12,109 nucleotides of DNA, taken from positions 1-12,109 of IMG/VR virus record IMGVR_UViG_3300019790_000026; one strand, given 5' to 3'. Below, in pieces: positions 1 through 12,109 of the stretch (positions are counted from its first letter, which is position 1; every line of letters starts with the position of its first letter). Source of the stretch: a virus (Duplodnaviria > Heunggongvirae > Uroviricota > Caudoviricetes). The notes under the pieces are model-generated. The model had not been told where the DNA came from and searched no databases. It worked only from the letters and a program-made list of their open reading frames with translations. A program made the position numbers and the translations under genes.

Positions 1-264
1 TTCCTCGATCCGGTGTTGTCGTTGTCTCAGCAGTGCACTGGTCTGTTCTGCTTCGGCATAGAGCCGCGCCTGCTCCCGGTTATTGGTTTCAGTCAGAATG
101 GACAGGCTGATAAGCTGGCTGTTTTTCTTCGTCAGTTCCTGCGCTTTACTTTTCAGCGCCGCGCGCTGCGTTTCGATGGTGTGGCTGGCGCTGTTAAGCC
201 GCCACGACTGCCAGCCCAGCGCAACGAGTGCCAGCGCCACCACTACTGCCAGCGCACGCGTCAT
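1..264 (-). CDS. Rz/LysB-like i-spanin, partial (3-prime end lies beyond the left edge)
   Basis: Minus-strand ATG at 264..262 preceded by AAGGAG. Translation MTRALAVVVALALVALGWQSW... has an N-terminal transmembrane segment followed by a charged, coiled-coil-like region, as in Rz-family spanins. The start overlaps the upstream stop as ATGA. Confidence 0.6.
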   Translation of the reverse strand, partial: MTRALAVVVALALVALGWQSWRLNSASHTIETQRAALKSKAQELTKKNSQLISLSILTETNNREQARLYAEAEQTSALLRQRQHRIEE

Positions 265-458
265 AGTCCAGCTCCTTTAAGGCACCAGGCCATCTCCCGC
301 GCACGGCGGTTATCCAGCCCCTGATTAAACACACCTTTTACATAAACCCAGCGCGGCAACTGTCGGCACGCATCTGCCCAGCGCCGCTGATTGAGCAATT
401 TCACCAGTGTGGAACTACAGGCATTGCCCGTTGCTGCTTCTGCAGAGCAGACTCCAGT
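261..458 (-). pseudogene. C-terminal fragment of a GH24 (T4/P22-type) phage lysozyme, 5-prime truncated
   Basis: Minus-strand frame ending in TGA at 263..261 translates to ...LLNQRRWADACRQLPRWVYVKGVFNQGLDNRRAREMAWCLKGAGL, which resembles the conserved C-terminus of phage lysozymes. There is no start codon, and an in-frame stop sits at 459-461, so only about 65 codons remain. Confidence 0.45.
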
Positions 459-546
459 TCAGACAGGCGTTCTTCCTGCTCAGACAGAGATTTTTCGGTT
501 CGCGCGCTCAGGTTTTGCTGCTCAGTGGCGACCAGCTCCACGGCTC

Positions 547-2472
547 ATGACAGTGAAAGCAAAGCGTTTTCGCATCGGGGTGGAAGGTGCCACCACCGAC
601 GGACGCGAAATCCAGCGTGAATGGCTGGAACAGATGGCAGCCAGCTACAACCCGGCGGTGTATACCGCGCTGATTAACCTTGAGCACATCAAGTCTTATC
701 TGCCGGACAGCACCTTTAACCGCTACGGCAAGGTGACGGCGCTGTTTGCTGAGGAAATCACGGAAGGTCCGCTGGCAGGCAAGATGGCGCTGTATGCCGA
801 CGTTGAGCCAACGGAGTCCCTGGTGGAACTGGTGAAAAAACGCGACAAGTGGGGTGACTATGGGCCGCTGGATCAGATGCAGCTCACCACCGCCGCACGC
901 TACTGCCAGCTCATTATGAAGGAGCACAAAGAAGGGAAAGATTTCAAAGAGATTGACCTGCTGGCGCGCCAGTCGGAGCGCCATGCGCGGATCGGCAAGT
1001 TTAACAATGGCGGCAACGAAGCCGACTTAAACCCTAACGTCGCCAACCGCAACAAAGGCCCGCGTCGTCAGCCGGAAAAGAACGTTTTCACCGATGAACA
1101 GATTGAGAAGCTGGAAGAAATCTTCCATTCCTCCATGTTCAACTACCAGCGCCACTGGTGGGAAGCCGGAAAAACCAACCGCATCCGCAACCTGCTGAAG
1201 TCACGCCAGATCGGCGCGACCTTCTATTTTGCCCGTGAAGCCCTGATTGACGCCCTGCTAACCGGGCGTAACCAGATTTTCCTTTCCGCCAGCAAGGCAC
1301 AGGCCCACGTCTTTAAGCAGTACATCATCGACTTCGCCAAAGAAGTGGAGGTGGAGCTGAAAGGCGATCCGATAGTGCTTCCTAACGGGGCCACGCTGTA
1401 CTTCCTCGGCACCAATGCCCGCACGGCCCAGAGTTACCACGGCAACCTGTATCTGGATGAATATTTCTGGATACCGAAATTCCAAGAGCTGCGCAAAGTG
1501 GCTTCCGGTATGGCTATTCACAAAAAATGGCGACAAACCTATTTTTCCACGCCATCCAGCCTGACACACAGTGCTTATCCGTTCTGGTCCGGTGCGCTGT
1601 TCAACCGTGGGCGCAACAAAGCCGACAAGGTGGACATCGACCTGTCCCACAGCAATCTGGCCCCCGGCCTGCTGTGCACAGACGGGCAATACCGCCAGAT
1701 AGTCACCGTGGAAGATGCGGTGCGCGGCGGCTGTAACCTGTTCGACCTCGACCAGCTACGCATGGAGTACAGCCCGGACGAATACCAGAACCTGCTGATG
1801 TGCGAGTTCGTGGACGATCTCGCGTCCGTGTTCCCGCTCAGCGAGCTGCAAGCGTGCATGGTGGACAGTTGGGAAATCTGGACCGACTTTCATGCACTGG
1901 CCCTGCGCCCGTTTGGCTGGCGCGAAGTGTGGATCGGTTATGACCCGGCAAAAGGTACGCAGAACGGCGACAGTGCCGGATGCGTGGTGGTGGCACCGCC
2001 AGCCGTGCCGGGTGGTAAGTTCCGCATTCTTGAGCGTCACCAGTGGCGCGGGATGGACTTCCGCGCCCAGGCTGACGCCATCAAAAAACTGACCGAGCAG
2101 TACAACGTGACCTACATCGGCATCGACTCGACAGGTGTCGGCCACGGGGTTTACGAGAACGTGAAAGCGTTTTTTCCAGCCGTCCGGGAGTTTGTCTACA
2201 ACCCCAACGTTAAAAACGCCCTGGTACTCAAGGCCTACGACATTATCAGTCACCGTCGTCTGGAGTTTGACGCCGGACACACCGACATAGCGCAGTCATT
2301 TATGGCAATCCGTCGCGCCACCACCGCCAGCGGCAACCGCCCAACCTATGAAGCCAGCCGCAGCGAAGAAGCCAGCCATGCCGATCTGGCCTGGGCAACA
2401 ATGCACGCACTGTTTAACGAACCGCTGCAGGGCGAGTCCGCCAATACCAGCAATATTGTGGAGATTTTTTGA
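547..2472 (+). CDS. Terminase ATPase/large subunit (P2 gpP-like) with a foreign N-terminus resembling capsid scaffold/protease gpO (apparent fusion)
   Basis: From about codon 98 onward (KRDKWGD..., DFKEIDLL, SRQIGATFYFAREAL, NQIFLSASKAQAHVFK, LYFLGTNARTAQSYHGN) the ORF matches my recollection of the GpP terminase family. Residues 1-97 (KRFRIGVEGATTDGREI...INLEH...FNRYGKV) match the GPO scaffold N-terminal motifs. ATG at 547 is preferred over the tracked TTG at 391. The stop overlaps the portal start. Confidence 0.7.
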   Translation: MTVKAKRFRIGVEGATTDGREIQREWLEQMAASYNPAVYTALINLEHIKSYLPDSTFNRYGKVTALFAEEITEGPLAGKMALYADVEPTESLVELVKKRDKWGDYGPLDQMQLTTAARYCQLIMKEHKEGKDFKEIDLLARQSERHARIGKFNNGGNEADLNPNVANRNKGPRRQPEKNVFTDEQIEKLEEIFHSSMFNYQRHWWEAGKTNRIRNLLKSRQIGATFYFAREALIDALLTGRNQIFLSASKAQAHVFKQYIIDFAKEVEVELKGDPIVLPNGATLYFLGTNARTAQSYHGNLYLDEYFWIPKFQELRKVASGMAIHKKWRQTYFSTPSSLTHSAYPFWSGALFNRGRNKADKVDIDLSHSNLAPGLLCTDGQYRQIVTVEDAVRGGCNLFDLDQLRMEYSPDEYQNLLMCEFVDDLASVFPLSELQACMVDSWEIWTDFHALALRPFGWREVWIGYDPAKGTQNGDSAGCVVVAPPAVPGGKFRILERHQWRGMDFRAQADAIKKLTEQYNVTYIGIDSTGVGHGVYENVKAFFPAVREFVYNPNVKNALVLKAYDIISHRRLEFDAGHTDIAQSFMAIRRATTASGNRPTYEASRSEEASHADLAWATMHALFNEPLQGESANTSNIVEIF

Positions 2473-3497
2473 TGGGAAAGAGTAAGAAAAACCGCGCTGC
2501 GGCGACGAACCAGATCCAGCATAAAAACCAAACTTCAGCCGAAGCATTCAGCTTCGGTGATCCCGTTCCTGTTCTGGACCGCCGCGAATTACTGGACTAT
2601 GTGGAATGCGTAAAGATGGACCGCTGGTATGAGCCACCCGTAAGTTTTGACGGACTGGCGCGAACATTCCGCGCCGCCGTACACCACAGTTCACCGATTG
2701 CAGTAAAGTGCAACATTCTGACCAGCACCTACATCCCTCACCCGCTGCTCAGCCAGCAGGCGTTTTCACGTTTTGTGCAGGACTATCTGGTTTTTGGTAA
2801 CGCCTACCTGGAGAAACGCACGAACCGATTCGGTGAAGTTATCGCCCTTGAGCCTGCGCTGGCAAAATACACCCGACGCGGATTAGACCTAGATACCTAC
2901 TGGTTTGTGCAATACGGCATGACCACGCAGCCGTATCAGTTCACGAAAGGCAGCATTTTTCATCTGATGGAACCGGACATCAACCAGGAGATCTACGGCC
3001 TGCCCGGCTATCTTTCTGCCATCCCATCCGCCCTGCTCAACGAGTCCGCCACGCTGTTCCGCCGAAAGTATTACATTAACGGTAGTCATGCAGGCTTCAT
3101 CATGTACATGACCGATGCCGCGCAGAACCAGGAAGATGTGAACAACCTCCGCAATGCGATGAAAAGTGCCAAAGGCCCTGGCAACTTCCGCAACCTGTTT
3201 ATGTACTCGCCTAATGGTAAAAAAGACGGACTTCAGATTATCCCGTTGTCAGAAGTCACAGCGAAGGATGAGTTTCTGAATATCAAGAACGTGAGCCGTG
3301 ATGACATGATGGCGGCACACCGCGTGCCGCCGCAAATGATGGGAATTATGCCTAATAATGTCGGGGGGTTTGGGGATGTGGAGAAGGCTAGCAAGGTATT
3401 CGTAAGAAACGAATTGATGCCCCTGCAGAAACGATTGCAGGAACTAAATAACTGGTTGGACGAAGAAGTGCTCAATTTTTCAACCTATGAGCTTTAG
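2472..3497 (+). CDS. Portal protein (P2 gpQ-like)
   Basis: 341-aa ORF directly after the terminase gene with TGATG stop/start overlap. Size and position match P2 Q, and the sequence resembles the gpQ portal family. ATG at 2472 is preferred over the tracked TTG at 2469. Confidence 0.85.
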   Translation: MGKSKKNRAAATNQIQHKNQTSAEAFSFGDPVPVLDRRELLDYVECVKMDRWYEPPVSFDGLARTFRAAVHHSSPIAVKCNILTSTYIPHPLLSQQAFSRFVQDYLVFGNAYLEKRTNRFGEVIALEPALAKYTRRGLDLDTYWFVQYGMTTQPYQFTKGSIFHLMEPDINQEIYGLPGYLSAIPSALLNESATLFRRKYYINGSHAGFIMYMTDAAQNQEDVNNLRNAMKSAKGPGNFRNLFMYSPNGKKDGLQIIPLSEVTAKDEFLNIKNVSRDDMMAAHRVPPQMMGIMPNNVGGFGDVEKASKVFVRNELMPLQKRLQELNNWLDEEVLNFSTYEL

Positions 3498-3502
3498 TTT
3501 TA

Positions 3503-3533
3503 AAACGAAGACCATTAGGTCTTCGCTTTATTT
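3503..3533. terminator. Bidirectional intrinsic terminator shared by the convergent portal and retron RT genes
   Basis: Hairpin CGAAGACC (3506-3513), loop ATTA, GGTCTTCG (3518-3525), flanked by an A-run on the left and CTTTATTT on the right, so it reads as stem plus U-tract on both strands. The RT stop codon lies in the loop. Confidence 0.5.
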
Positions 3534-4477
3534 AAAGGGTTCTTTCCATATTTTTTTTCTAATTTGCTAATATAAGTTATTAATCTCCTATGGCTTTTTG
3601 AATCCACACTTAAAATAAATGACAACCATCCCCTAACGTGTTCTATCTCAGAAGACTTACCGCAAAATATATGATGTATCTTTGCTCTAATTTCTTTATA
3701 TTTTTCTCTACCTATCCCAACTTTCTCTTGTGAAATAACTAAACCTGTAACTTTCCTCTGACTACGAGGCCCACTAATACAAGTTTTTTTTGAGTTAATA
3801 ACCAATCCTTCACTTGGGATTATAGAAAATAAAAAATCACGTGCTTTAACAACCTTTTTCATAGACTGTGCAGATAAGGTGAGATCATCGGCATATCTCG
3901 TATATATCAAGCCCCGACTACCTGCATAACCCTGAATACGATAATCAAGTTTAGAACATATTAGATTAGCTAATTTAGGTGATGATGGAGCACCTTGTGG
4001 TAGCAGATTTTTATAACAACATATTTTTGTCAAAACTGAAGATATTAGTCGATTATAACCAAGAGAATGGAACACTCCAAAAACTTTGTTAGCAGTTAAA
4101 CTTGGGAAAAAATCCTCCAAATCAATATTCAGTATAAAGTTTGCCCCAATATGCGGGGTAGCATTATTCAAAATAGATTGGTGCTTTTCAAATCCAATAG
4201 AAAAAGGAGATGACGACAGTTTATCTAAAATGTTACGTAGAACCCATCCTTGTAAGGCTTTAAGTTCTCGAGAAGGTTGGTAAATGGTTCTCATTCTCTT
4301 CTCTGGGCCTTTCTTTTCTACAGTGTAGATCCTATAGCGAAAATCAGCTGTATAGATTAACAACCGAAGTGTTTCAACAGATATGCGAGTCGCCTTAGAC
4401 ATGTCATGCAAATTGTTCATGACAGGTAGGCCGAGATTTCTCAATCTAAAAGTGTTCAAATATTCAGCGGATTTCAT
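3515..4477 (-). CDS. ret: Retron reverse transcriptase, Ec86 / Retron-Eco1 type
   Basis: 320-aa ORF with reverse-transcriptase motifs (NIDLEDFFPS, LPQGAPSSPKLANL, YADDLTLS) and the retron-typical VTG motif (RKVTGLVIS). The translation matches my memory of the published Ec86 RT, and the gene sits immediately downstream of the msr-msd. Confidence 0.93.
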   Translation of the reverse strand: MKSAEYLNTFRLRNLGLPVMNNLHDMSKATRISVETLRLLIYTADFRYRIYTVEKKGPEKRMRTIYQPSRELKALQGWVLRNILDKLSSSPFSIGFEKHQSILNNATPHIGANFILNIDLEDFFPSLTANKVFGVFHSLGYNRLISSVLTKICCYKNLLPQGAPSSPKLANLICSKLDYRIQGYAGSRGLIYTRYADDLTLSAQSMKKVVKARDFLFSIIPSEGLVINSKKTCISGPRSQRKVTGLVISQEKVGIGREKYKEIRAKIHHIFCGKSSEIEHVRGWLSFILSVDSKSHRRLITYISKLEKKYGKNPLNKAKT

Positions 4478-4484
4478 GAAAGTT

Positions 4485-4496
4485 GCGCACCCTTAC
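4485..4496 (-). repeat. Retron a2 inverted repeat (pairs with a1 at 4641-4652)
   Basis: 12-nt exact reverse complement of 4641-4652. Confidence 0.85.
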
Positions 4497-4639
4497 GTCA
4501 GAAAAAACGGGTTTCCTGGTTGGCTCGGAGAGCATCAGGCGATGCTCTCCGTTCCAACAAGGAAAACAGACAGTAACTCAGATTCAATGCAGGATGCCGA
4601 AACAACATCCAGAGGTTGACCTTAATGATAAACCTCTCG

Positions 4640-5563
4640 CTAAGGGTGCGCATACGGAATCTTATCATAGTTAAATGTTGATTTTCTACGGTTTTCAAAA
4701 TTCATAATCTCAAGCCGCAATCGGTCAAGTGTCTTTCTATCAAAGACGCTCCTAACATAGCTAGCCCCCAAAGCAGTGACCTGATAACCATCAGTCATTT
4801 GAAGTATTTTTCGTTCATTTATTAGACGAGAAACAACGGATCTAACAATAATTTTAGATAAAACATCATCTTGCTTTATCGCTTTAAAAGCTAGTTCACA
4901 CAGTGTGCGGTAGTTGACACTATCCAGTAAATAGATACAAGGCAATAGAAACCGCTCTGCGTATAATATATTTCCAATATCTTTTGATACTTTATTTTCT
5001 TTCCTAACCTTCTTAATAGATGCCATTAATTTTTTATATAATCGTAATTTTCTGGCAACATCAATAGATGAATCACACATTTCTTTTAGTTCATTTGAAC
5101 TACAACGCAAAACAGATTTTGAATTAAACTTACGCAACAGGCGAACAGGACCATAGTTAATAAAGCTACGTTTTGATTTAAATTTTGCATCTTGAATGCA
5201 AATCAACTTTCTCCTTAAGTTTTCATTATTAGAGAACGCACCAAGCTCTGTGAAAGACCCCGGACTTTCAGGAAATAAAATTATTACATCGACAGCTTCA
5301 GCCAGAATATTTTCTAAACTTAAAAGGCTATGCTGCCCTTGACCAGCCAAAAGATCATCAAATAGATCTTCTGGATAAAATATATCAACATCACTGAACT
5401 TTGCTAAAAATTGTGATAATTGATGACGCCAAGATTGATGATTAGCAACGTCACCACCACATAGAAAAATGGTTATTTTAATATTAGCTCCTCGATAGAA
5501 GCCTTTCTTTGTGAGATGTCCTATAAGCTGTTGTTGCTGCTCATCGGTAAATTTTTTATTCAT
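4640..5563 (-). CDS. Retron effector: nucleoside 2-deoxyribosyltransferase-like (NDT) domain with a C-terminal putative DNA-binding region
   Basis: 307-aa ORF immediately upstream of msr-msd-ret on the same strand, with RBS GGGGAGA. The N-terminal region (IFLCGGD..., ILFPESPGSFTELGAF) fits the NDT/flavodoxin-like fold with the conserved Glu. Its TAG stop overlaps the a1 repeat. Confidence 0.85.
   Translation of the reverse strand: MNKKFTDEQQQQLIGHLTKKGFYRGANIKITIFLCGGDVANHQSWRHQLSQFLAKFSDVDIFYPEDLFDDLLAGQGQHSLLSLENILAEAVDVIILFPESPGSFTELGAFSNNENLRRKLICIQDAKFKSKRSFINYGPVRLLRKFNSKSVLRCSSNELKEMCDSSIDVARKLRLYKKLMASIKKVRKENKVSKDIGNILYAERFLLPCIYLLDSVNYRTLCELAFKAIKQDDVLSKIIVRSVVSRLINERKILQMTDGYQVTALGASYVRSVFDRKTLDRLRLEIMNFENRRKSTFNYDKIPYAHP
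4641..4652 (-). repeat. Retron a1 inverted repeat; the presumed priming G follows at 4640
   Basis: 12-nt exact reverse complement of 4485-4496, at the 5-prime end of msr. Confidence 0.85.
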
Positions 5564-5704
5564 AATCTCCCCGCTTTTTTTTCTACTTTATACATCAAGT
5601 TATGAATAGATCCAATCTCCATACCACATGGCGCGCGCTCGTATCCCCGCCACGCCTGCCCGCTTTATGCAGTGGTTTTCATGCACATGCATAACATGAG
5701 CAAA

Positions 5705-5730
5705 AGCCCGCCAGTTCTGGCGGATCTGAG
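5705..5730 (-). terminator. Putative intrinsic terminator (minus-strand sense)
   Basis: Perfect hairpin CCGCCAG-N3-CTGGCGG (5708-5726) followed on the minus strand by GCTTTTGC. Confidence 0.3.
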
Positions 5731-6035
5731 CAAAGACGATCCTCAATCGATCATGCGATTTCATGCAGCATAGTCATGCACTGTCAAGGAAGTGAAAATC
5801 CGTATCTGAATGGCCACTTGAAAAACGGATCATACGGGTTTACAAAGATGAATGTTCGCTGTGAACGGGAAGCGGAAGTTAACTTTCAGATAACATAATC
5901 CATATGCACGAGAACCTCTAAAATAGAATGGGACACCTAAGCGGGGTACTTACAACGATTCTTTCCATATTCACAGTTAACACTCTGTTTGGCGTATTTT
6001 TATTCAAATAGCAAACACCAATAAAAGGAGTTTCC

Positions 6036-6371
6036 ATGAACAATATTCCCCCTATACCACAGTTAGGAATTTATGTCTCAAAAATCGATCCCACCCTACG
6101 TATCACTGTAACCGATGTTGATATTGTTGATGGTGAGGATGATTCTCCTGATGATGAATTGTTTTATTTAGTCCACTGGATCGAGGGGGAAGATGAAAGT
6201 GATATGACAGCAATGGGATTTGAGCTAGACCCAGTAGAGTGGCAGGCTTTCGTTGAATCTGAGCAATTAGTGTTTGAGCGTGATCCGTACATGGATTCAA
6301 TCCCCGAAAATTCAAACTTGGCAAAGATTCGGGATTTTCTCATGAAGACTAAACAGAATGATCATTCGTAA
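6036..6371 (+). CDS. Hypothetical small, strongly acidic protein (111 aa)
   Basis: Strong RBS AAAAGGAG 6 nt upstream of ATG. Very Asp/Glu-rich (DVDIVDGEDDSPDDE, EGEDESD). AT-rich relative to the phage core. Divergent from the retron effector. Confidence 0.7.
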   Translation: MNNIPPIPQLGIYVSKIDPTLRITVTDVDIVDGEDDSPDDELFYLVHWIEGEDESDMTAMGFELDPVEWQAFVESEQLVFERDPYMDSIPENSNLAKIRDFLMKTKQNDHS

Positions 6372-6563
6372 GTGTAAGCATCCATCAGGAAAATGGTTTT
6401 GTAAGTGAATCATCAACTTTTAGAGAGTCTCAGACACTCCCACTTCTGCTTCTGACACAAAGCGGACGATCACTTATCAAAATAACCGCCCACCTTACGC
6501 CTTATTTCACTCATTGCCCAAACTAGCCCCCATCAGAATGAATCCTCCTGGGGGCAACATTTC

Positions 6564-6797
6564 TTAATGCAGCCAGCTGTCGTCCTCCCACACCTTCTGC
6601 ATAATTTTCATCACTTGTTTTCTTTCTTCATCCAGTTGCAGTCCGGTTAGTTCCACACCGTTAGAGCTACCTTTGCGAATGCGAATTACCGTTTTGGGAT
6701 ACAGGGGGCGCAGATTGCGGTAAAGCTCGGATTCAAGGGCGTCCAGGGTAGACTGGCTAATCTTCTGCTCTTTATCGATCATTATTTCAATGCGCAT
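6564..6797 (-). CDS. DinI-family protein (DNA-damage-inducible protein I-like)
   Basis: 77-aa product MRIEIMIDKEQKISQSTLDALESELYRNLRPLYP...VWEDDSWLH has the DinI length and pattern (MRIEV..., C-terminal acidic W motif). RBS GGTGA upstream. ATG at 6797 is preferred over the tracked 101-aa extension. Confidence 0.8.
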   Translation of the reverse strand: MRIEIMIDKEQKISQSTLDALESELYRNLRPLYPKTVIRIRKGSSNGVELTGLQLDEERKQVMKIMQKVWEDDSWLH

Positions 6798-6807
6798 AAA
6801 AGTCACC

Positions 6808-6996
6808 TCAGCTGATGACATCCATTGAGCGGTTGTATTCGTGGCTTCTGATTTTTGCCATGAGTTCATCAGTCAATTCAGAAACCCACTGCAGAGCCAG
6901 CCCCTTCTCTTCATCACTACACTCACTAGCCGCTACAAGCTTAAGAAAAAAATCAATGCGCTGGAGCTTCAAAGACTCCAAAAAATAGTCCTGCAT
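6808..6996 (-). CDS. Hypothetical 62-aa protein, first gene of the SOS-boxed operon (possibly the N-terminal part of a Tum-like antirepressor)
   Basis: ORF with strong RBS AGGAGG, directly downstream of the LexA-box promoter and 10 nt upstream of the DinI-like gene. Confidence 0.5.
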   Translation of the reverse strand: MQDYFLESLKLQRIDFFLKLVAASECSDEEKGLALQWVSELTDELMAKIRSHEYNRSMDVIS

Positions 6997-7036
6997 CTTT
7001 CCTCCTATGACACCAAAACAATACTGTATACATAAC

Positions 7037-7056
7037 CACTGTTTATATTTACAGTA
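7037..7056. promoter_or_regulatory. LexA (SOS) box overlapping a putative promoter for the orf62/DinI-like operon
   Basis: cACTGTttatatttACAGta is a perfect CTGT-N8-ACAG with AT-rich spacer. A second half-site (TACTGTATAC) lies at 7022-7031. A TTTACA / TATACT promoter-like pair is on the minus strand. Confidence 0.7.
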
Positions 7057-7148
7057 TATAATAATCTTACTGATGTAAAACGTTTTTTTACGTTCATCGG
7101 CCTGATATGCCTGGTATTATTAAGAGCACGAATTGTCAACCCGCGTAA

Positions 7149-8594
7149 TTAATACAGGTTCCGCCACTTATCATCTTCCTTCAGACGCTGGTTCCGATAG
7201 AAGATACGCAGGCCTGCTCCTGACGGAATACTGCCGCCGCGAAGGAGCAAATCGACTTCTTTCTCGCTGCCATCAAATCCCCTGGACTTCAGTTCATAGA
7301 CGAGCTGCTGTCGCTGATGGTCTGTAATTCGCTGTTTGTAGTCTTTACGCCGTTTCGGTTTCACCTGGCGTAACCTTGCAGCCAGTTCCCGGCGCTCTTT
7401 TTTGCTCATACTGTGCAGGTAATTGTGCAACTCCTTGTCATTCATACGGGTAATATCCGTTCTGGAGTCCCCATCAGCTGATTTGTCTTTCCCTTGTTGG
7501 TTCAAATTTTCAGCAAGGGGACAGTTATTGCCACGAGTCCAAGGGGCGCAAGCGCCCTGGTCGGCTGCCGCCTCCTGAACGTCAACGGCCTTACGAACCA
7601 TTTTCCACTTCACCGCATGAGTGCAGATCTTGCCCTCTGCAATGGGTGACCAGATGCCATAAATACGAATACCGTGATCGCCATATGCGGTCGGTTCTTC
7701 GTTGATTTCATAAGCAGTTCTGATGAGGTGATATTTGCGGGGAACCAGTACGCCGCCCTGCTTCATGATGTAGGTGGCAAAACAACCAGCATCAGCAGCA
7801 GCCAGGATTGCATCAAGACGCGGGTTATCCAGTACCGGCGCACCTGCTTTTTTGTCACCCTGTTGCCTTGCCGCCTGACCAGCCAGCAATCGCAGTTCAC
7901 GGTAAGCCTGACGCCCCGGAATGCCAAAGAAGCGGAATTGCTGAACACGATGCAGAGACGCCCAGGCATTAACGTATTCAGCGTTATCACGCAGGGATTT
8001 ACCCGTTTCCTTGCTGATCTCCCCAGCCAGACCACGCCCGTCAATGTTCTTACTGATGTATTTCGCGATATAGCTTGTTGGCGTACCTTTGCGCGGGTTT
8101 ATCAGCTCAGACTTAAAGCGTGGTCCCGTGTTATTGCCCAGCTCCTCGCGGTCTTCACGGATGGCAAACTTACGCAGTAATGCAGTGATGGCGCGGCGGT
8201 CTTTTTTACGCATGAAACACATGAGATGCCAGTGCACAGTACCGTCATGATGCGGCTCAGCTACCGCACCTGCAGCAACACGCCCGATCTCTGCGGTTGC
8301 ACTCATGACGTAATGTGGCAGTTTCTCTTTTGCCACCTCATTAATCGGTACGCATGGCAGGCAGTGAATCTGAGCCAGAAAACCATCTACCAGCGTTGAA
8401 TCTTCAGTCAGATCGGTAAGCAGCCAGATTTCTGGTGCGGTTAATAAATGAGGTTGCGCTGGGTTCAACTTGTTCCGCAGAATCTGCACATTCATGCCAG
8501 CACGTTCTGCCAGTTGCACCAGGTTGTGGCGCAATGCGAATGCACGACAGGCTTCATCAAAATGTGGATGTTTGGAAACTTGGTAATCAAACAT
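7149..8594 (-). CDS. In-frame fusion ORF: 186 CII-like N-terminus (~115 aa) joined to the C-terminal catalytic part of a gpA-type rolling-circle replication initiator
   Basis: N-terminus [24 protein letters not shown]...[26 protein letters not shown] matches my recollection of phage 186 CII. The downstream part carries the HUH-like HWHLM motif and the paired-tyrosine motif [12 protein letters not shown] typical of P2 gpA / phiX174 A proteins. ATG at 8594 with RBS AGAGG. Confidence 0.65.
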
Positions 8595-8626
8595 GGTCAA
8601 TGCCTCTGATGTATTTCAGAATCGAA

Positions 8627-8848
8627 CTAATTAAGGTTTAGATTGCATTCTGAAAGCGCATCAACGGTCATTGCTGCTATGTTGATCATCACTTTTTCGC
8701 GTTTTTTATCTTTGCGCAGTCGGTGACGGATAAGGCGTCCATCAGCCAACATGTCATTGATGGTATCGATGGATAGCCCTGTCAGCTCGCTATAGCGTTC
8801 AATAGTCACATGAGGGGTGGTAAGAGTGATTGAAATGTTAGGTCTCAT
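8627..8848 (-). CDS. Apl/Cox-like small HTH protein (first early-lytic gene: excisionase / transcription regulator)
   Basis: 73-aa ORF divergent from the CI gene and immediately upstream of the CII-like ORF, as apl is in phage 186. HTH-like segment [21 protein letters not shown]. Confidence 0.5.
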
Positions 8849-8967
8849 GATGCAACATTCCTCGTTTAATGATGATTAATCAGGACGAATACGGATCGTT
8901 TGTATTTTGTGAACACCATAAACATACGATCGCACAGTGAAATCGTCAAGATAAAAGTTCACTTGGA
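8849..8967. promoter_or_regulatory. Immunity switch region between apl-like and cI-like genes (lytic/lysogenic promoters and candidate operators)
   Basis: 119-bp divergent intergenic region containing related motifs ATACGGATCGTTTGTAT and ATACGATCGCAC. Its position matches the pR/pL switch of 186-type phages. Confidence 0.4.
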
Positions 8968-9543
8968 GTGACCATGAATTTGGAGAAAGGCGGACGAGGC
9001 GCTATAGAGCGCATGGTAGAAGCTTATGGATTCAAGACTCGACAGGCGTTGTGCGATCATTTAGGAATCTCTAAAAGTACACTCGCCACACGCTACATGC
9101 GTGACTCATTCCCAGCAGAATGGGTAATCCAGTGCGCCCTTGAAACAGGCACCTCGCTTAATTGGCTCACAACCGGGCATGGTTCAAAGCAAACTTCAGG
9201 TAATACAAATACTATGGAAGTTGCTAAATATGTATTATCTGATGGGGCCTTGTGTGAAGACGGTTTTTATATTTTCGATAGAGAATTTCTACCGTCGGCA
9301 TTCAAGAATCTTTTTGTAATCACAGATAATAATTCTGAATTTATTTGTGATAAGGAATTTGATGATATACGTGATGGTAAATGGGTAATAAGTATTGATG
9401 GCGAAATAACGATCCGTGACATTACTCGTTTACCCGGTGGAAGAATCTTCGTCGAGGGTGGAAATAGAGCCTTCGAGTGCAAGATAGAAGATGTTGAAAT
9501 AATTGGGAAAATTATAAGTTTAACAATTAAGTACGTTAGGTAA
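8968..9543 (+). CDS. cI: CI-type immunity repressor (phage 186 CI-like)
   Basis: 191 aa (186 CI is 192 aa). N-terminal HTH (TRQALCDHLGISKSTLATRYMRD) with a C-terminal oligomerisation-like domain. RBS GGAGTGA. Divergent from the apl-like gene and upstream of int. Confidence 0.8.
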   Translation: MTMNLEKGGRGAIERMVEAYGFKTRQALCDHLGISKSTLATRYMRDSFPAEWVIQCALETGTSLNWLTTGHGSKQTSGNTNTMEVAKYVLSDGALCEDGFYIFDREFLPSAFKNLFVITDNNSEFICDKEFDDIRDGKWVISIDGEITIRDITRLPGGRIFVEGGNRAFECKIEDVEIIGKIISLTIKYVR

Positions 9544-9558
9544 TACCGGGAGGAAACT

Positions 9559-9750
9559 ATGCTTGGTAAGGTATTTTTTGTGGTTTTATCATGCTCTTTG
9601 TTATTAAACCCACTAACTACCTATGCTAAAAATTATCCTTGTTCTGGGAAAAAGGGAGGTGTCTCTCACTGTACCTCCGATGGAAAGTTCGTTTGCAATG
9701 ATGGAACTATTAGTAAATCAAAAAAAATCTGTACTAAAAACTCGCGATAA
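9559..9750 (+). CDS. Small secreted Cys-rich protein (63 aa) inserted between cI and int
   Basis: RBS GGAGGAAACT-ATG. Predicted signal peptide [23 protein letters not shown], then a Lys-rich mature peptide of about 40 aa with 5 Cys. Confidence 0.55.
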
Positions 9751-9936
9751 ATTTTGCTTTTATATCTGCGCCTAATATAACAATGAGCCGCAGGCTAACC
9801 GCAAAAGTCACATACTCACATAGCAAAAAATAGCTAACTTCATTATGGCTTCAGTGAGATGTATGGTCGCAGGATTTCATACATTGACACTGGTTATACA
9901 TACAGTAAAAATGCTCTCTACTGGAGGGCATTTTTT

Positions 9937-10953
9937 ATGGCAGTACGAAAACTCACCACAGGAAAATGGCTTTGCGAATGTTACCCCGCCGGACGTAGTG
10001 GACGTCGTGTGCGTAAACAATTCGCCACCAAAGGCGAAGCTCTGGCTTTTGAGCGTCACACGATGGAAGAAACCGAAGCAAAGCCCTGGCTGGGCGAATC
10101 AGTGGATCGTCGGACATTGAAAGACGTGATTGAGCTATGGTTCAAACTACATGGTAAATCTCTGACAGCTGGGCAGCATGTCTATGACAAACTGCTGTTG
10201 ATGGTTGACGCTCTGGGCAATCCCCTTGCAACTGATCTAACCTCTAAAATGTTTGCCCACTATCGAGATAAACGCCTGACAGGTGAGATCTACTTCAGCG
10301 AGAAATGGAAGAAAGGAGCAAGCCCGGTCACCATTAACCTGGAGCAAAGCTATCTAAGTAGTGTTTTTAGCGAACTATCCCGCCTGGGCGAATGGTCGTA
10401 TCCGAACCCACTGGAGAACATGCGAAAATTCACCATCGCAGAAAAAGAGATGGCATGGCTTACCCATGAGCAGATTGTTGAACTGCTGGCTGATTGCAAA
10501 CGTCAGGACCCAATTCTGGCACTGGTAGTCAAGATATGCCTAAGCACAGGCGCACGCTGGCGAGAAGCAATAAATCTTACCCGCTCGCAAGTGACCAAAT
10601 ACCGAATTACCTTTGTAAGAACGAAGGGGAAGAAAAACAGAAGCATCCCTATCAGTAAAGAGCTTTACGAAGAGATCATGGCGCTTGATGGGTTCAATTT
10701 CTTTACAGACTGCTATTTTCAATTTTTATCCGTGATGGAAAAAACGTCTATCGTGCTCCCTCGCGGTCAACTGACACACGTTCTGCGCCATACGTTTGCG
10801 GCGCACTTCATGATGTCGGGTGGAAATATCCTTGCTTTGCAAAAAATCCTCGGACATCACGATATAAAAATGACTATGCGCTATGCCCATTTAGCACCCG
10901 ATCATCTTGAGACGGCTCTGAGATTCAACCCCCTCGCAACGCTAGAAGTGTGA
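9937..10953 (+). CDS. int: Tyrosine integrase (P2/186 Int family)
   Basis: 338 aa. Catalytic residues in context: ...STGARWREA..., ...HVLRHTFA..., ...MRYAHL.... RBS GGAGGG. ATG at 9937 is preferred over the tracked start at 9859. Confidence 0.9.
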   Translation: MAVRKLTTGKWLCECYPAGRSGRRVRKQFATKGEALAFERHTMEETEAKPWLGESVDRRTLKDVIELWFKLHGKSLTAGQHVYDKLLLMVDALGNPLATDLTSKMFAHYRDKRLTGEIYFSEKWKKGASPVTINLEQSYLSSVFSELSRLGEWSYPNPLENMRKFTIAEKEMAWLTHEQIVELLADCKRQDPILALVVKICLSTGARWREAINLTRSQVTKYRITFVRTKGKKNRSIPISKELYEEIMALDGFNFFTDCYFQFLSVMEKTSIVLPRGQLTHVLRHTFAAHFMMSGGNILALQKILGHHDIKMTMRYAHLAPDHLETALRFNPLATLEV

Positions 10954-11061
10954 TCTACTGGTGCAAAAATAACATCATCCCCCACTAGCTGAGTTAATTG
11001 CGTCAGAGTAAACTTTTATCAGTATATAAGTTCACTTTTATTCAATATATTAAGAGATTAC

Positions 11062-11394
11062 ATGGCTATCATTACCGTAAAAAAACATACTGTCAAAAAA
11101 GCATTATCGATGGGATTTGAAAAAGTACTTGACGATCGTGGTTATGATTCTGGGGCGTACTACGTTAAAGATGGCAAAAAGTGGATTTTTGATATTGTTG
11201 CGCTTAAGCAAAAACAAGGAGCAACCTCAGATGATGAGTTAAAAATCCTTGGGTATGATGTTGATACATATAATCTTGTAAAAAATGAATCTAATGAACT
11301 GGCTGAACTTTATCAAGATATTGCAGTTGAAGATGGTGAGCCAATGTATCTAGAGGGTGGCGTGTACTTATATCCTGATGGTTCTATCCGTTAG
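11062..11394 (+). CDS. Hypothetical protein (110 aa), AT-rich, just downstream of int
   Basis: ORF with AT-rich promoter-like upstream region. No family recognised. Composition contrasts with the GC-rich sequence that follows it. Confidence 0.5.
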   Translation: MAIITVKKHTVKKALSMGFEKVLDDRGYDSGAYYVKDGKKWIFDIVALKQKQGATSDDELKILGYDVDTYNLVKNESNELAELYQDIAVEDGEPMYLEGGVYLYPDGSIR

Positions 11395-11528
11395 CATGCA
11401 AATTGGCAGCACAACCGGGTTGTTCCAAATGGCGACAAAGTGGCGGCAGCGGTTGGCATTACCCCGTAATAACCACCACTGACCACCAACCCAACTTATT
11501 GTTTTTACTATAACTTATTGTTTTCATT

Positions 11529-11594
11529 AACCCGTTTACATAAATGGGTTTTTTGTTATCTAAAACTTATCTACTACCCTGCAACCCTCTCAAC
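11529..11594. repeat. Inverted repeat copy A (66 bp, perfect reverse complement of 12044-12109)
   Basis: Direct comparison: 11529-11594 equals the reverse complement of 12044-12109 at every position. Confidence 0.95.
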
Positions 11595-12074
11595 CATCCT
11601 CAAAATCTCCTCGCGCGATAGCGGCTTACGGTCGGTGACAAAATGCAGCGTCATCCCCTCAATAAACGCATCAAGCGCGCGGGCGGTTCCGGGTTCAAAC
11701 CATTGTTCGAGCGTTTGCTGACTGCGCTGCATCCAGTTTTGCATTACCGTTTTTAATAGCGGTTTTCGGCTAGCCAGCGCGTAGAGCTGGTACATCAGCT
11801 CCATGTTATCCGGCGTTGCAACCTGTGAGCTGTAGATCATATCGGTGATAGCCTGGCATGCGCCCGGAGCATCACTAACATCGCTAAAAAATGCCTGATA
11901 TTGCCGGGACATGATCTCAGTAAAACTGCTGAACGCCTCCAGTAACAACTCATCAATTCCTGAAAAATAGTAGGTCATCGATCCCAACGGTACCCCGGCA
12001 AGGGTAGCAATTTTGCGGTGCGTAACAGCATGTATTCCGTAAAGTTGAGAGGGTTGCAGGGTAGTAGATAAGTT
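11574..12074 (-). pseudogene. TetR-family transcriptional regulator, apparently 5-prime truncated by the inverted repeat
   Basis: The minus-strand frame is open from 12074 to the TAG at 11576..11574. It encodes a TetR-type HTH ([27 protein letters not shown]) and a ligand-binding-like C-terminal domain. There is no ATG upstream of the HTH (only a TTG at 11987, inside the HTH). The first codons and the last codons plus stop lie inside the two inverted-repeat copies. Confidence 0.65.
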
Positions 12075-12109
12075 TTAGATAACAAAAAACCCATTTATGT
12101 AAACGGGTT
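12044..12109. repeat. Inverted repeat copy B (66 bp, cut by the window edge, so it may be longer)
   Basis: Perfect reverse complement of 11529-11594. The window ends inside or at the end of the repeat. Confidence 0.95.

What the first reader, a model, noticed from the sequence alone, without database searches (positions are those of the whole stretch)
3515..5563. Retron Ec86 (Retron-Eco1) operon carried as an AT-rich island between the portal gene and a cos-like remnant
The effector, msr-msd and RT lie in a row on the minus strand, and the ncRNA and RT match my recollection of the published Retron-Eco1 sequences. The island is much more AT-rich than the flanking phage genes and sits at the A-to-cos-to-Q interval where P2 carries old and tin. 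The system is known, but its context in a degraded prophage is informative.
Basis: partly seen in the sequence, partly recalled or inferred. Interest (0 to 1): 0.7.

Follow-up and report, generated by a model that had tools for sequence, protein, structure and literature searches.

The report
Retron-Eco1 (Ec86) in BL21 prophage
This stretch is the textbook anti-phage retron Ec86 (Retron-Eco1) of E. coli B/BL21, base-for-base identical to the published system and sitting in its long-known place next to the cos site of a decayed P2/186-like prophage, so it is correct but ordinary.

Summary
Window 3515-5563 holds, on the minus strand, a 307-aa effector (4640-5563), the msr-msd non-coding RNA (about 4484-4653) and a 320-aa reverse transcriptase (3515-4477). 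Both proteins are 100% identical over their full length to the solved Retron Ec86 chains. The DNA is 100% identical to BL21(DE3), the strain from which the studied system was cloned. The a1/a2 repeats, the msd hairpin, the CCTGG Dcm site, the RT motifs and effector residues D69/E106 are all present. The island (3498-5630) is 35% GC against 55% for the late genes. It lies between the portal gene's terminator and the cos site. Two corrections apply. First, cos is not a remnant: its 19-nt core is identical to that of Fels-2. Second, the retron is on the portal side of cos, whereas P2's old and tin lie on the A side. The context was published by Dodd & Egan in 1996, and the gpA-cos-gpQ defence hotspot by Rousset et al. 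Side notes: both window ends are rearranged relative to all 5426 complete E. coli genomes, and the same retron sits in apparently intact prophages in wild isolates.

The parts
4640..5563 (-). Retron-Eco1 effector, 307 aa: an N-terminal NDT-like N-glycosidase domain (D69 and E106 present) and a C-terminal winged-HTH domain. It is the first gene of the unit.
   Evidence: 100% identical over residues 1-307 to PDB 7v9x_C/8qbk 'Retron Ec86 putative ribosyltransferase/DNA-binding protein'. PADLOC NDT_II-A 2.7e-94. NCBIfam NF038232 scores 176.6 bits against a cutoff of 100. Catalytic residues as given in bioRxiv 10.1101/2023.08.16.553469, read off the translation.
4484..4653 (-). msr-msd non-coding RNA (a1 through a2). 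The 5' end overlaps the last codons and the stop codon of the effector. a2 ends 6 nt before the RT start codon. The exact RNA ends were not determined here.
   Evidence: Fold of -81.1 kcal/mol, z = -8.7, showing the a1/a2 stem, two msr stem-loops and the long msd hairpin. The sequence is identical to the BL21(DE3) locus. No Rfam family matches.
4641..4652 (-). a1 inverted repeat (UGCGCACCCUUA). The G at 4640, immediately 3' of it and also the last base of the effector stop codon TAG, is the inferred branching/priming guanosine.
   Evidence: Perfect 12-nt inverted repeat with 4484-4495. The assignment of the priming G follows the general retron rule (PMC6868368) and my own recollection of Ec86. 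It was not tested.
4592..4610 (-). msr stem-loop with an 8-bp stem and a UUU loop (GGAUGUUG-UUU-CGGCAUCC), the published recognition element for the RT C-terminal region Y. A first msr stem-loop lies at 4611-4637.
   Evidence: Predicted fold. [quoted passage not shown] UUU' in PMC6868368.
4497..4582 (-). msd template. The msDNA is the plus-strand sequence GTCAGAAAAAACGGG...CTCAGA. It is 86 nt as first published and 85 nt in the cryo-EM structures, so the ends are good to +/-1 nt.
   Evidence: An 85-nt msDNA sequence recalled from the literature matches plus strand 4498-4582 exactly. Lengths of 85 versus 86 nt are from PMC12673091. Reverse transcription starts at a cytosine (PMC6868368).
4512..4565 (.). 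msd DNA stem-loop (25-nt arms, 88% complementary, 4-nt loop). It contains the Dcm motif CCTGG at 4515-4519 (plus strand, i.e. msDNA sense), the published methylation sensor.
   Evidence: Inverted repeat I1. CCTGG located. Its role is described in bioRxiv 10.1101/2023.08.16.553469.
4484..4495 (-). a2 inverted repeat (UAAGGGUGCGCA)
3515..4477 (-). Retron-Eco1 reverse transcriptase, 320 aa, with NATPH at residue 105 (region X), YADD at 195 and VTG at 243 (region Y).
   Evidence: 100% identical over residues 1-320 to PDB 7v9u_A 'RNA-directed DNA polymerase from retron EC86'. Pfam RVT_1 2.9e-25. PADLOC RT_II-A 7.1e-128. NCBIfam retron_St85_RT scores 287.6 bits against a cutoff of 235. Motifs found.
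3506..3525 (.). GC-rich hairpin (CGAAGACC-ATTA-GGTCTTCG) between the convergent portal and RT genes, spanning the RT stop codon. It is terminator-like on the plus strand, in the position of 186 tW / P2 tQ, and probably also ends the retron transcript.
   Evidence: Terminator scan. 186 and P2 each have their own, non-homologous hairpin directly after the portal stop codon. Function is inferred.
3498..5630 (.). The AT-rich cargo island (35.4% GC) between the portal stop codon and the conserved cos block.
   Evidence: Homology with Fels-2, Klebsiella phage 4LV2017 and E. coli phage 500465-1 stops inside the portal 3' end and resumes at 5631. GC values.
5631..5782 (.). Conserved cos block. The 19-nt cohesive-end core GGCGTGGCGGGGATACGAG lies at 5656-5638 (minus strand). 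A terminator-like hairpin at 5724-5707 (minus strand) sits in the position of 186 t95b.
   Evidence: identical core in Fels-2; 15/19 identical to phage 186.
2472..3497 (+). Portal gene (P2 Q / 186 W homologue), the left neighbour of the island.
   Evidence: Pfam Phage_portal; RefSeq annotation in BL21(DE3).

Best explanation
This is Retron-Eco1 (Ec86), a type II-A tripartite retron anti-phage system. It is carried as a cargo ('moron') island beside the cos site of a defective 186/Fels-2-like (P2-family) prophage in an E. coli BL21-lineage genome. The steps below are published for this exact sequence and were not re-tested here. The unit effector-ncRNA-RT is transcribed on the minus strand from a native promoter upstream of the effector. 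The ncRNA folds with a1 paired to a2. The RT binds the msr stem-loops and primes from the 2'-OH of the G just 3' of a1. It copies the msd into an 85/86-nt DNA hairpin that stays joined to the msr RNA. RT-msDNA binds dimers of the NDT-like/wHTH effector and builds filaments that keep the effector quiescent. A phage-encoded Dcm methylase modifies the CCTGG site in the msDNA stem. This activates the N-glycosidase, which hydrolyses NAD(P)+ and depletes adenine derivatives, aborting the infection. Shown here: sequence identity of all three parts, presence of every structural element, and the genomic setting. Inferred or taken from the literature: transcription, msDNA synthesis, filament formation and the trigger.
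For: RT and effector are 100% identical, end to end, to the PDB Retron Ec86 chains. Window 834-12046, which contains the whole locus, is 100% identical to BL21(DE3). The studied system was amplified from BL21(DE3) as 'effector-ncRNA-rrt' with its native promoter. PADLOC gives RT_II-A 7e-128 and NDT_II-A 3e-94, and both NCBIfam retron St85 models score above their cutoffs. The a1/a2 repeat and msd hairpin are present, and the fold has z = -8.7 with the published 8-bp/UUU msr stem-loop. NAXXH, YADD and VTG are present in the RT, and D69/E106 in the effector. The CCTGG Dcm site lies in the msd stem. The mechanism is taken from bioRxiv 10.1101/2023.08.16.553469 and PMC12673091. For the setting, P, Q, cos, tum-like, A, cox, CI and int are in P2-family order. 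The CII'-'A fusion is typical of BL21 and absent from REL606. Genes N through K are deleted relative to intact carriers. Other defence genes occupy the same slot in relatives.
Against: Nothing in the sequence argues against it. Three limits apply. No Rfam family recognises the ncRNA. No convincing sigma-70 promoter was found in the 67 nt between the cos block and the effector start, and the scan found fewer promoter-like sites than the shuffles. The reported biochemical output of the effector differs between papers: adenine-derivative depletion versus NAD(P)+ hydrolysis / ADP-ribosylation. Expression and msDNA production in the actual source of this window cannot be checked.
Confidence: 0.97

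Rival explanations
1. The locus is an inactive relic: a retron decaying together with its defective prophage and no longer making msDNA or defending the cell.
For: The surrounding prophage is clearly degraded. N through part of K are deleted and CII is fused to a truncated A. The window's own ends carry further rearrangements.
Against: Both ORFs are intact and identical to proteins that were purified, solved and shown active. The ncRNA is identical to the BL21(DE3) copy, which is the source of the functional cloned system. BL21(DE3) with its native operon responds to Dcm overexpression (legend of Fig. S1C).
Confidence: 0.02
2. The RT belongs to another prokaryotic RT class (group II intron maturase, DGR, Abi/DRT), and the flanking hairpins only resemble msr-msd by chance.
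For: Weak sub-threshold hits to group II RT and Drt models.
Against: Those hits are far below their cutoffs: group_II_RT_mat scores 46 bits against a cutoff of 300, and Drt2/Drt3a score 35-36 bits against 390/200. The retron-specific NAXXH and VTG motifs are present. The protein is identical to the solved retron RT.
Confidence: 0.005
3. The island serves mainly the prophage, as a lysogenic-conversion or superinfection-exclusion gene set like P2 old/tin, rather than being a host-owned defence. This is a different emphasis and not a different mechanism.
For: It occupies the cos-adjacent cargo slot of a P2-family phage where relatives carry Abi, TIR, SEFIR, AIPR and other retron genes. The same retron sits in apparently complete prophages in wild isolates.
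Against: In B/BL21 the prophage can no longer make capsids, since N, M, L and the holin are missing. Any benefit there therefore accrues to the host. The two views are compatible.
Confidence: 0.3

Closest known systems
Retron-Eco1 (Ec86) of E. coli B / BL21(DE3); PDB 7V9U, 7V9X, 7XJG, 8QBK-8QBM, 9JM0
   Same: Everything tested is the same: RT and effector are 100% identical, the locus DNA including the ncRNA is 100% identical, the gene order is effector-ncRNA-RT, and it lies in the same prophage at the same chromosomal site beside rcdA.
   Different: Nothing differs within 834-12046. Only the outer ends of the window (1-843 and 12044-12109) are rearranged relative to BL21(DE3). They lie outside the retron.
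Retron-Eco2 (Ec67) in the 186-related retronphage phiR67
   Same: It is reported to occupy the same genetic site, replacing DNA between cos and a terminator of a 186-related prophage (Dodd & Egan 1996, via PMC6868368). Its RT is homologous (PDB 9i2f, 121 bits).
   Different: Eco2 is a single RT-nuclease fusion of 596 aa with no separate NDT effector. NCBIfam retron_Ec67_fus scores only 203 bits here against a cutoff of 450. Its msDNA is also different.
Retron-Sen2 (St85) family, type II-A retrons
   Same: Same family models for the RT and for the STM3845/NDT-like effector. RefSeq names both genes 'retron St85 family'.
   Different: Different sequence and host. Sen2 lies near SGI1 in Salmonella rather than in a P2-family prophage (PMC6868368).
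Type II-A retron of Klebsiella phage 4LV2017 (NC_047818)
   Same: Same slot (portal gene to cos), same orientation and same order effector then RT, in a closely related phage backbone whose flanks are 92-96% identical.
   Different: The RT is only 32% identical and the effector NDT domain 41% identical. The effector and RT genes abut with 1 nt between them, so the ncRNA must lie elsewhere.
P2 old / tin exclusion genes, and the gpA-cos-gpQ hotspot of Rousset et al.
   Same: Non-essential anti-phage cargo next to cos in a P2-family phage.
   Different: old and tin lie on the A side of cos (P2 30684-33380; cosR at 33575-33593). The retron lies on the Q side. The mechanisms are unrelated.

Membership tests
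Retron (general) | Reverse transcriptase with the retron-specific NAXXH (region X), YADD and VTG (region Y) motifs | tested here: met
   NATPH at residue 105, YADD at 195 and VTG at 243. Motif definitions are from PMC6868368. Pfam RVT_1 2.9e-25.
Retron (general) | msr-msd ncRNA bounded by the inverted repeats a1/a2, with a G immediately 3' of a1 and a long msd hairpin | tested here: met
   Perfect 12-nt a1/a2 at 4641-4652 / 4484-4495, G at 4640, msd hairpin at 4512-4565. The fold has z = -8.7.
Retron (general) | Production of branched RNA-DNA msDNA with a 2'-5' linkage | not testable with these tools
   Published for this exact sequence in E. coli B/BL21. It needs a gel or sequencing of msDNA from the source strain.
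Retron type II-A (St85 family; Eco1 is called II-A3 in PMC12673091) | RT of the II-A clade | tested here: met
   PADLOC RT_II-A 7.1e-128, the best of 70 RT models. NCBIfam retron_St85_RT scores 287.6 bits against a cutoff of 235.
Retron type II-A (St85 family; Eco1 is called II-A3 in PMC12673091) | Adjacent NDT-like (nucleoside deoxyribosyltransferase-like) effector with a C-terminal DNA-binding domain | tested here: met
   PADLOC NDT_II-A 2.7e-94 over residues 8-293. NF038232 scores 176.6 bits against a cutoff of 100. It is identical to the solved NDT+wHTH effector.
Retron-Eco1 (Ec86) itself | RT, effector and ncRNA sequences equal to the published E. coli B/BL21 system, in the order effector-ncRNA-RT | tested here: met
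   100% protein identity to the PDB chains. 100% DNA identity to BL21(DE3) and REL606 over 3400-5800. Gene order as. The PDB nucleic-acid chains themselves could not be searched.
Retron-Eco1 (Ec86) itself | 85/86-nt msd with the CCTGG Dcm sensor site in the DNA stem-loop; effector residues D69 and E106 | tested here: met
   msd at 4497-4582, CCTGG at 4515-4519. D69 and E106 were read from the translation.
P2-family cos-adjacent defence hotspot (gpA-cos-gpQ) | Variable cargo between replication gene A and portal gene Q, next to cos, with conserved flanks in related phages | tested here: met
   The flanks 2400-3473, 5631-5782 and 6554-7700 are conserved at 81-96%. The cargo is replaced by AIPR/Abi, TIR, SEFIR, RloB/ATPase or another retron in relatives. 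The hotspot is defined.
Group II intron RT / DRT (considered and rejected) | Score above the family cutoff | tested here: not met
   group_II_RT_mat scores 46.4 bits against a cutoff of 300, Drt3a 36 against 200, and Drt2 35 against 390.

The most novel reading that the evidence does not exclude
There are two modest possibilities. (1) The rearrangements at the window's ends may be real events in a BL21 derivative, showing continuing decay of the retron-bearing prophage while the retron itself stays untouched. These are an inverted 305-bp piece of gene O that makes an in-frame GPO::terminase ORF, and a fold-back junction inside rcdA. (2) Retron-Eco1 may still be phage-mobile, because wild isolates (20A24, VG1046-3E9, KB732238.1) carry the identical retron in apparently complete 186/Fels-2-like prophages. 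No sequenced phage isolate carries it.
Probability: 0.3. Interest if true: 0.15.

Novelty: already known. Interest (0 to 1): 0.08.

Why it matters
It matters little as a discovery. Retron-Eco1 is the most used retron in genome engineering, and its structure, trigger and prophage context are already published. The value of the check is mainly negative. The only marginally useful by-products are two. RefSeq annotates the RT 25 codons short of the experimentally used protein. And apparently intact Eco1-carrying prophages exist in environmental isolates and could be tested for inducibility.

Tried and rejected
- Rfam at gathering thresholds over the whole window gave nothing. At E<=10 over 4400-4760 it gave only chance miRNA/leader hits on the hairpins. 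No curated RNA family captures this ncRNA.
- A full-text search for the ncRNA sequence string found no paper. The ncRNA identity therefore rests on DNA identity to BL21(DE3) and on published structural descriptions.
- The sigma-70 consensus scan found no convincing promoter upstream of the effector or of msr, and fewer sites than in the shuffles. The native promoter remains unmapped here.
- Aligning the post-portal terminators of the window, 186, P2, Fels-2 and two other phages showed no sequence homology. Only the position is analogous. The left edge of the island therefore cannot be placed more finely than the portal stop codon.
- Looking up the chimeric GPO::terminase protein in public assemblies found nothing. 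The source of the window's end rearrangements stays unknown.
- I first assumed the window was colinear with BL21(DE3). The odd Pfam GPO hit on the plus strand led to the BLAST comparison that disproved this for 1-843 and 12044-12109.
- Pfam-A gave no hit for the effector. A newer Pfam family, PF28093 STM3845, is listed for the same protein.
Full report
**Observation**

ORF 4640-5563 (minus strand) is 307 aa and ORF 3515-4477 (minus strand) is 320 aa. The 162 nt between them contain a perfect 12-nt inverted repeat at 4484-4495 / 4641-4652. They also contain a hairpin with 25-nt arms at 4512-4536 / 4541-4565.

As RNA, the minus strand of 4482-4654 folds at -81.1 kcal/mol, against -45.8 +/- 4.1 for dinucleotide shuffles (z = -8.7). 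The fold shows:
- the a1/a2 stem;
- two msr stem-loops, the second with an 8-bp stem and a UUU loop;
- the long msd hairpin.

The island is strongly AT-rich. GC is 0.354 for 3498-5630, against 0.554 for 1-3497, 0.539 for the cos block and 0.452 to the right.

**Identity**

The 320-aa protein is identical at every residue to PDB 7v9u_A, 'RNA-directed DNA polymerase from retron EC86'. The 307-aa protein is identical at every residue to 7v9x_C/8qbk, the Ec86 effector.

The family models agree:
- PADLOC gives RT_II-A at 7e-128 and NDT_II-A at 3e-94.
- The NCBIfam retron St85 RT and effector models both score above their curated cutoffs.
- Group II intron and DRT models fall far below theirs.

The RT carries NATPH (105), YADD (195) and VTG (243), the retron hallmarks listed in PMC6868368. 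The effector keeps D69 and E106, the residues described as locking the ligand and as catalytic.

At the DNA level, window 3400-5800 is 100% identical to BL21(DE3), REL606 and other B-lineage genomes. The retron proper occurs in 48 of 5426 complete E. coli genomes, always at >=99% identity and always chromosomal. The studied Ec86 system was amplified from BL21(DE3) as 'effector-ncRNA-rrt' with its native promoter. This is the gene order seen here.

An 85-nt msDNA sequence that I recalled matches plus strand 4498-4582 exactly. Published lengths are 86 nt (biochemistry) and 85 nt (structures). The Dcm motif CCTGG lies in the msd stem at 4515-4519. No Rfam family detects the ncRNA.

**Anatomical details read from the sequence**

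- a1 overlaps the last codons of the effector.
- The G that follows a1, the inferred priming guanosine, is the third base of the effector's TAG stop codon (4640).
- a2 ends 6 nt before the RT start codon.
- A GC-rich hairpin at 3506-3525 spans the RT stop codon and lies 9 nt after the convergent portal gene's stop codon. This is the position of tW in 186 and tQ in P2, although the hairpins are not homologous.

**Context**

The gene order is terminase P, portal Q, retron, cos, DinI/Tum-like, A, Cox-like, CI, int, then host rcdA. This is the P2-family prophage map read backwards. The closest phage backbones are Fels-2-like and 186-like Peduoviridae.

Homology with Fels-2, Klebsiella phage 4LV2017 and E. 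coli phage 500465-1 covers three stretches:
- the portal gene up to about 3430-3473;
- a 150-bp block at 5631-5782;
- 6554 onward.

The middle block holds the cohesive-end core. GGCGTGGCGGGGATACGAG (5656-5638, minus strand) is identical to Fels-2 and matches 186 at 15 of 19 positions. So cos is conserved, not visibly a remnant.

The retron island begins 8 nt beyond the 19-mer, on the portal side. In P2, old and tin lie on the other side of cos (30684-33380, with cosR at 33575-33593), while Q starts 187 nt from cosL. The A-side slot here (5783-6553) carries a 111-aa protein of unknown function (phrog_17127; DUF8087).

In relatives, the portal-side slot carries AIPR/Abi, TIR, SEFIR or RloB/ATPase genes. 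In Klebsiella phage 4LV2017 it carries a different II-A retron, with an RT 32% identical and an effector NDT domain 41% identical.

This arrangement is already in the literature. [quoted passage not shown] Rousset et al. described the gpA-cos-gpQ hotspot of P2-like prophages, retrons included.

**Degradation of the prophage**

Intact carriers such as strain 20A24, VG1046-3E9 and KB732238.1 have a full late and early gene set. Compared with them, B strains lack the end of O, all of N, M, L, X and the holin, and the start of the lysozyme gene. The window also has the BL21-specific in-frame fusion of CII to a truncated A (7149-8600). REL606 lacks this fusion and keeps A, dam and four other genes. 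The window therefore comes from the BL21 branch of E. coli B.

**Mechanism**

The mechanism is taken from the literature for this exact sequence and was not re-tested.
1. RT-msDNA acts as antitoxin to the NDT-like effector.
2. The three parts assemble into filaments.
3. Phage Dcm methylates CCTGG in the msDNA stem.
4. The activated N-glycosidase depletes adenine derivatives and/or hydrolyses NAD(P)+, giving abortive infection.

The native promoter was not located by the consensus scan.

**Verdict**

The finding is correct and already known. I rate interest at 0.08. The rival readings, an inactive relic or another RT class, have essentially no support.

**Side observations**

Window 834-12046 is colinear with BL21(DE3), but the ends are not.
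- Window 539-843 is an inverted copy of the 5' end of gene O. It is flanked by losses of 312 and 262 nt and has 6-7 nt of microhomology at the joints. This creates an in-frame GPO::terminase ORF.
- Window 12044-12109 is a fold-back copy of 11529-11594 joined inside rcdA.
- No complete E. coli genome shares these joints, and the chimeric protein is not on record.

Whether this is a real variant or a chimeric assembly cannot be decided here.

RefSeq starts the RT at ATG 4402 (295 aa), 25 codons short of the 320-aa protein used in all structures. The N-terminal helix of that protein is reported as essential for dimerisation.

Noticed in passing
window 1-843: The left end is not colinear with BL21(DE3) or any of 5426 complete E. 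coli genomes. Window 1-544 equals L001 5012-5555. Window 539-843 is an inverted copy of L001 5868-6172 (the 5' end of scaffold gene O). Window 834 onward equals L001 6435 onward. Stretches of 312 and 262 nt are lost, and the joints show CACGGC / GAAAAAA microhomology. The result is an in-frame GPO(N-terminus)::terminase(from codon 44) ORF at 547-2472. That exact protein is not on record in public assemblies. It is either a real rearrangement or a chimeric assembly.
   Followed up: partly
window 12044-12109: The last 66 bases are an inverted (fold-back) copy of window 11529-11594. They are joined with 3 nt of microhomology to the interior of the host gene rcdA. This pattern is typical of a chimeric read or contig end, but it could be real.
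   Followed up: partly
window 4402-4477: RefSeq/PGAP annotates the RT (WP_226347323.1) from ATG 4402 as 295 aa. All PDB entries use the 320-aa protein from ATG 4477, whose N-terminal helix is reported as essential for dimerisation. The database annotation is probably 25 codons short.
   Followed up: partly
L010 (E. coli 20A24, NZ_CP147044.1) 5000-33000; L013, L014: The identical Eco1 retron sits in apparently complete 186/Fels-2-like prophages at the same rcdA-side attachment site in environmental isolates. These prophages have N, M, L, X, holin, lysozyme, full A, dam and CII. The degraded state in B strains is therefore derived, and a live Eco1 'retronphage' may exist. No sequenced phage record encodes an RT more than 60% identical to RT-Eco1.
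   Followed up: partly
window 5783-6553 (ORF 6036-6371, +): A second variable slot lies on the A side of cos, in the position of 186 orf97 and P2 old/tin. It holds a 111-aa protein of unknown function (phrog_17127, DUF8087, no PADLOC hit). In KB732238.1 it is replaced by a 239-aa protein with a faint HNH hit.
   Followed up: partly
window 7039-7054: A LexA-box-like CTGTTTATATTTACAG (0.10 expected by chance) lies upstream of a 62-aa ORF (6808-6996, -) and the DinI/Tum-like gene (6564-6869, -). This mirrors the SOS-controlled p95-tum operon of phage 186.
   Followed up: no
window 7149-8600 (-): An in-frame fusion of the N-terminal part of CII (CP76) to the C-terminal part of replication protein A marks a ~3.4-kb deletion. 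The deletion is specific to the BL21 branch. REL606 keeps CII, fil, DUF5347, DUF2732, traR/dksA-like, dam and full-length A. This places the window's origin in the BL21 lineage.
   Followed up: yes
window 10944-11424 (ORF 11062-11394, +): A 481-nt AT-rich segment with a 110-aa ORF that hits no family lies between int and the host DNA. It is absent from strain 20A24, where int abuts the rcdA side directly. It may be a leftover of another element at the same attachment site.
   Followed up: no
L002 (Klebsiella phage 4LV2017) 1134-3117: A different type II-A retron occupies the same slot. Its effector and RT genes are separated by a single nucleotide, so its ncRNA cannot lie between them as it does in Eco1.
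   Followed up: no
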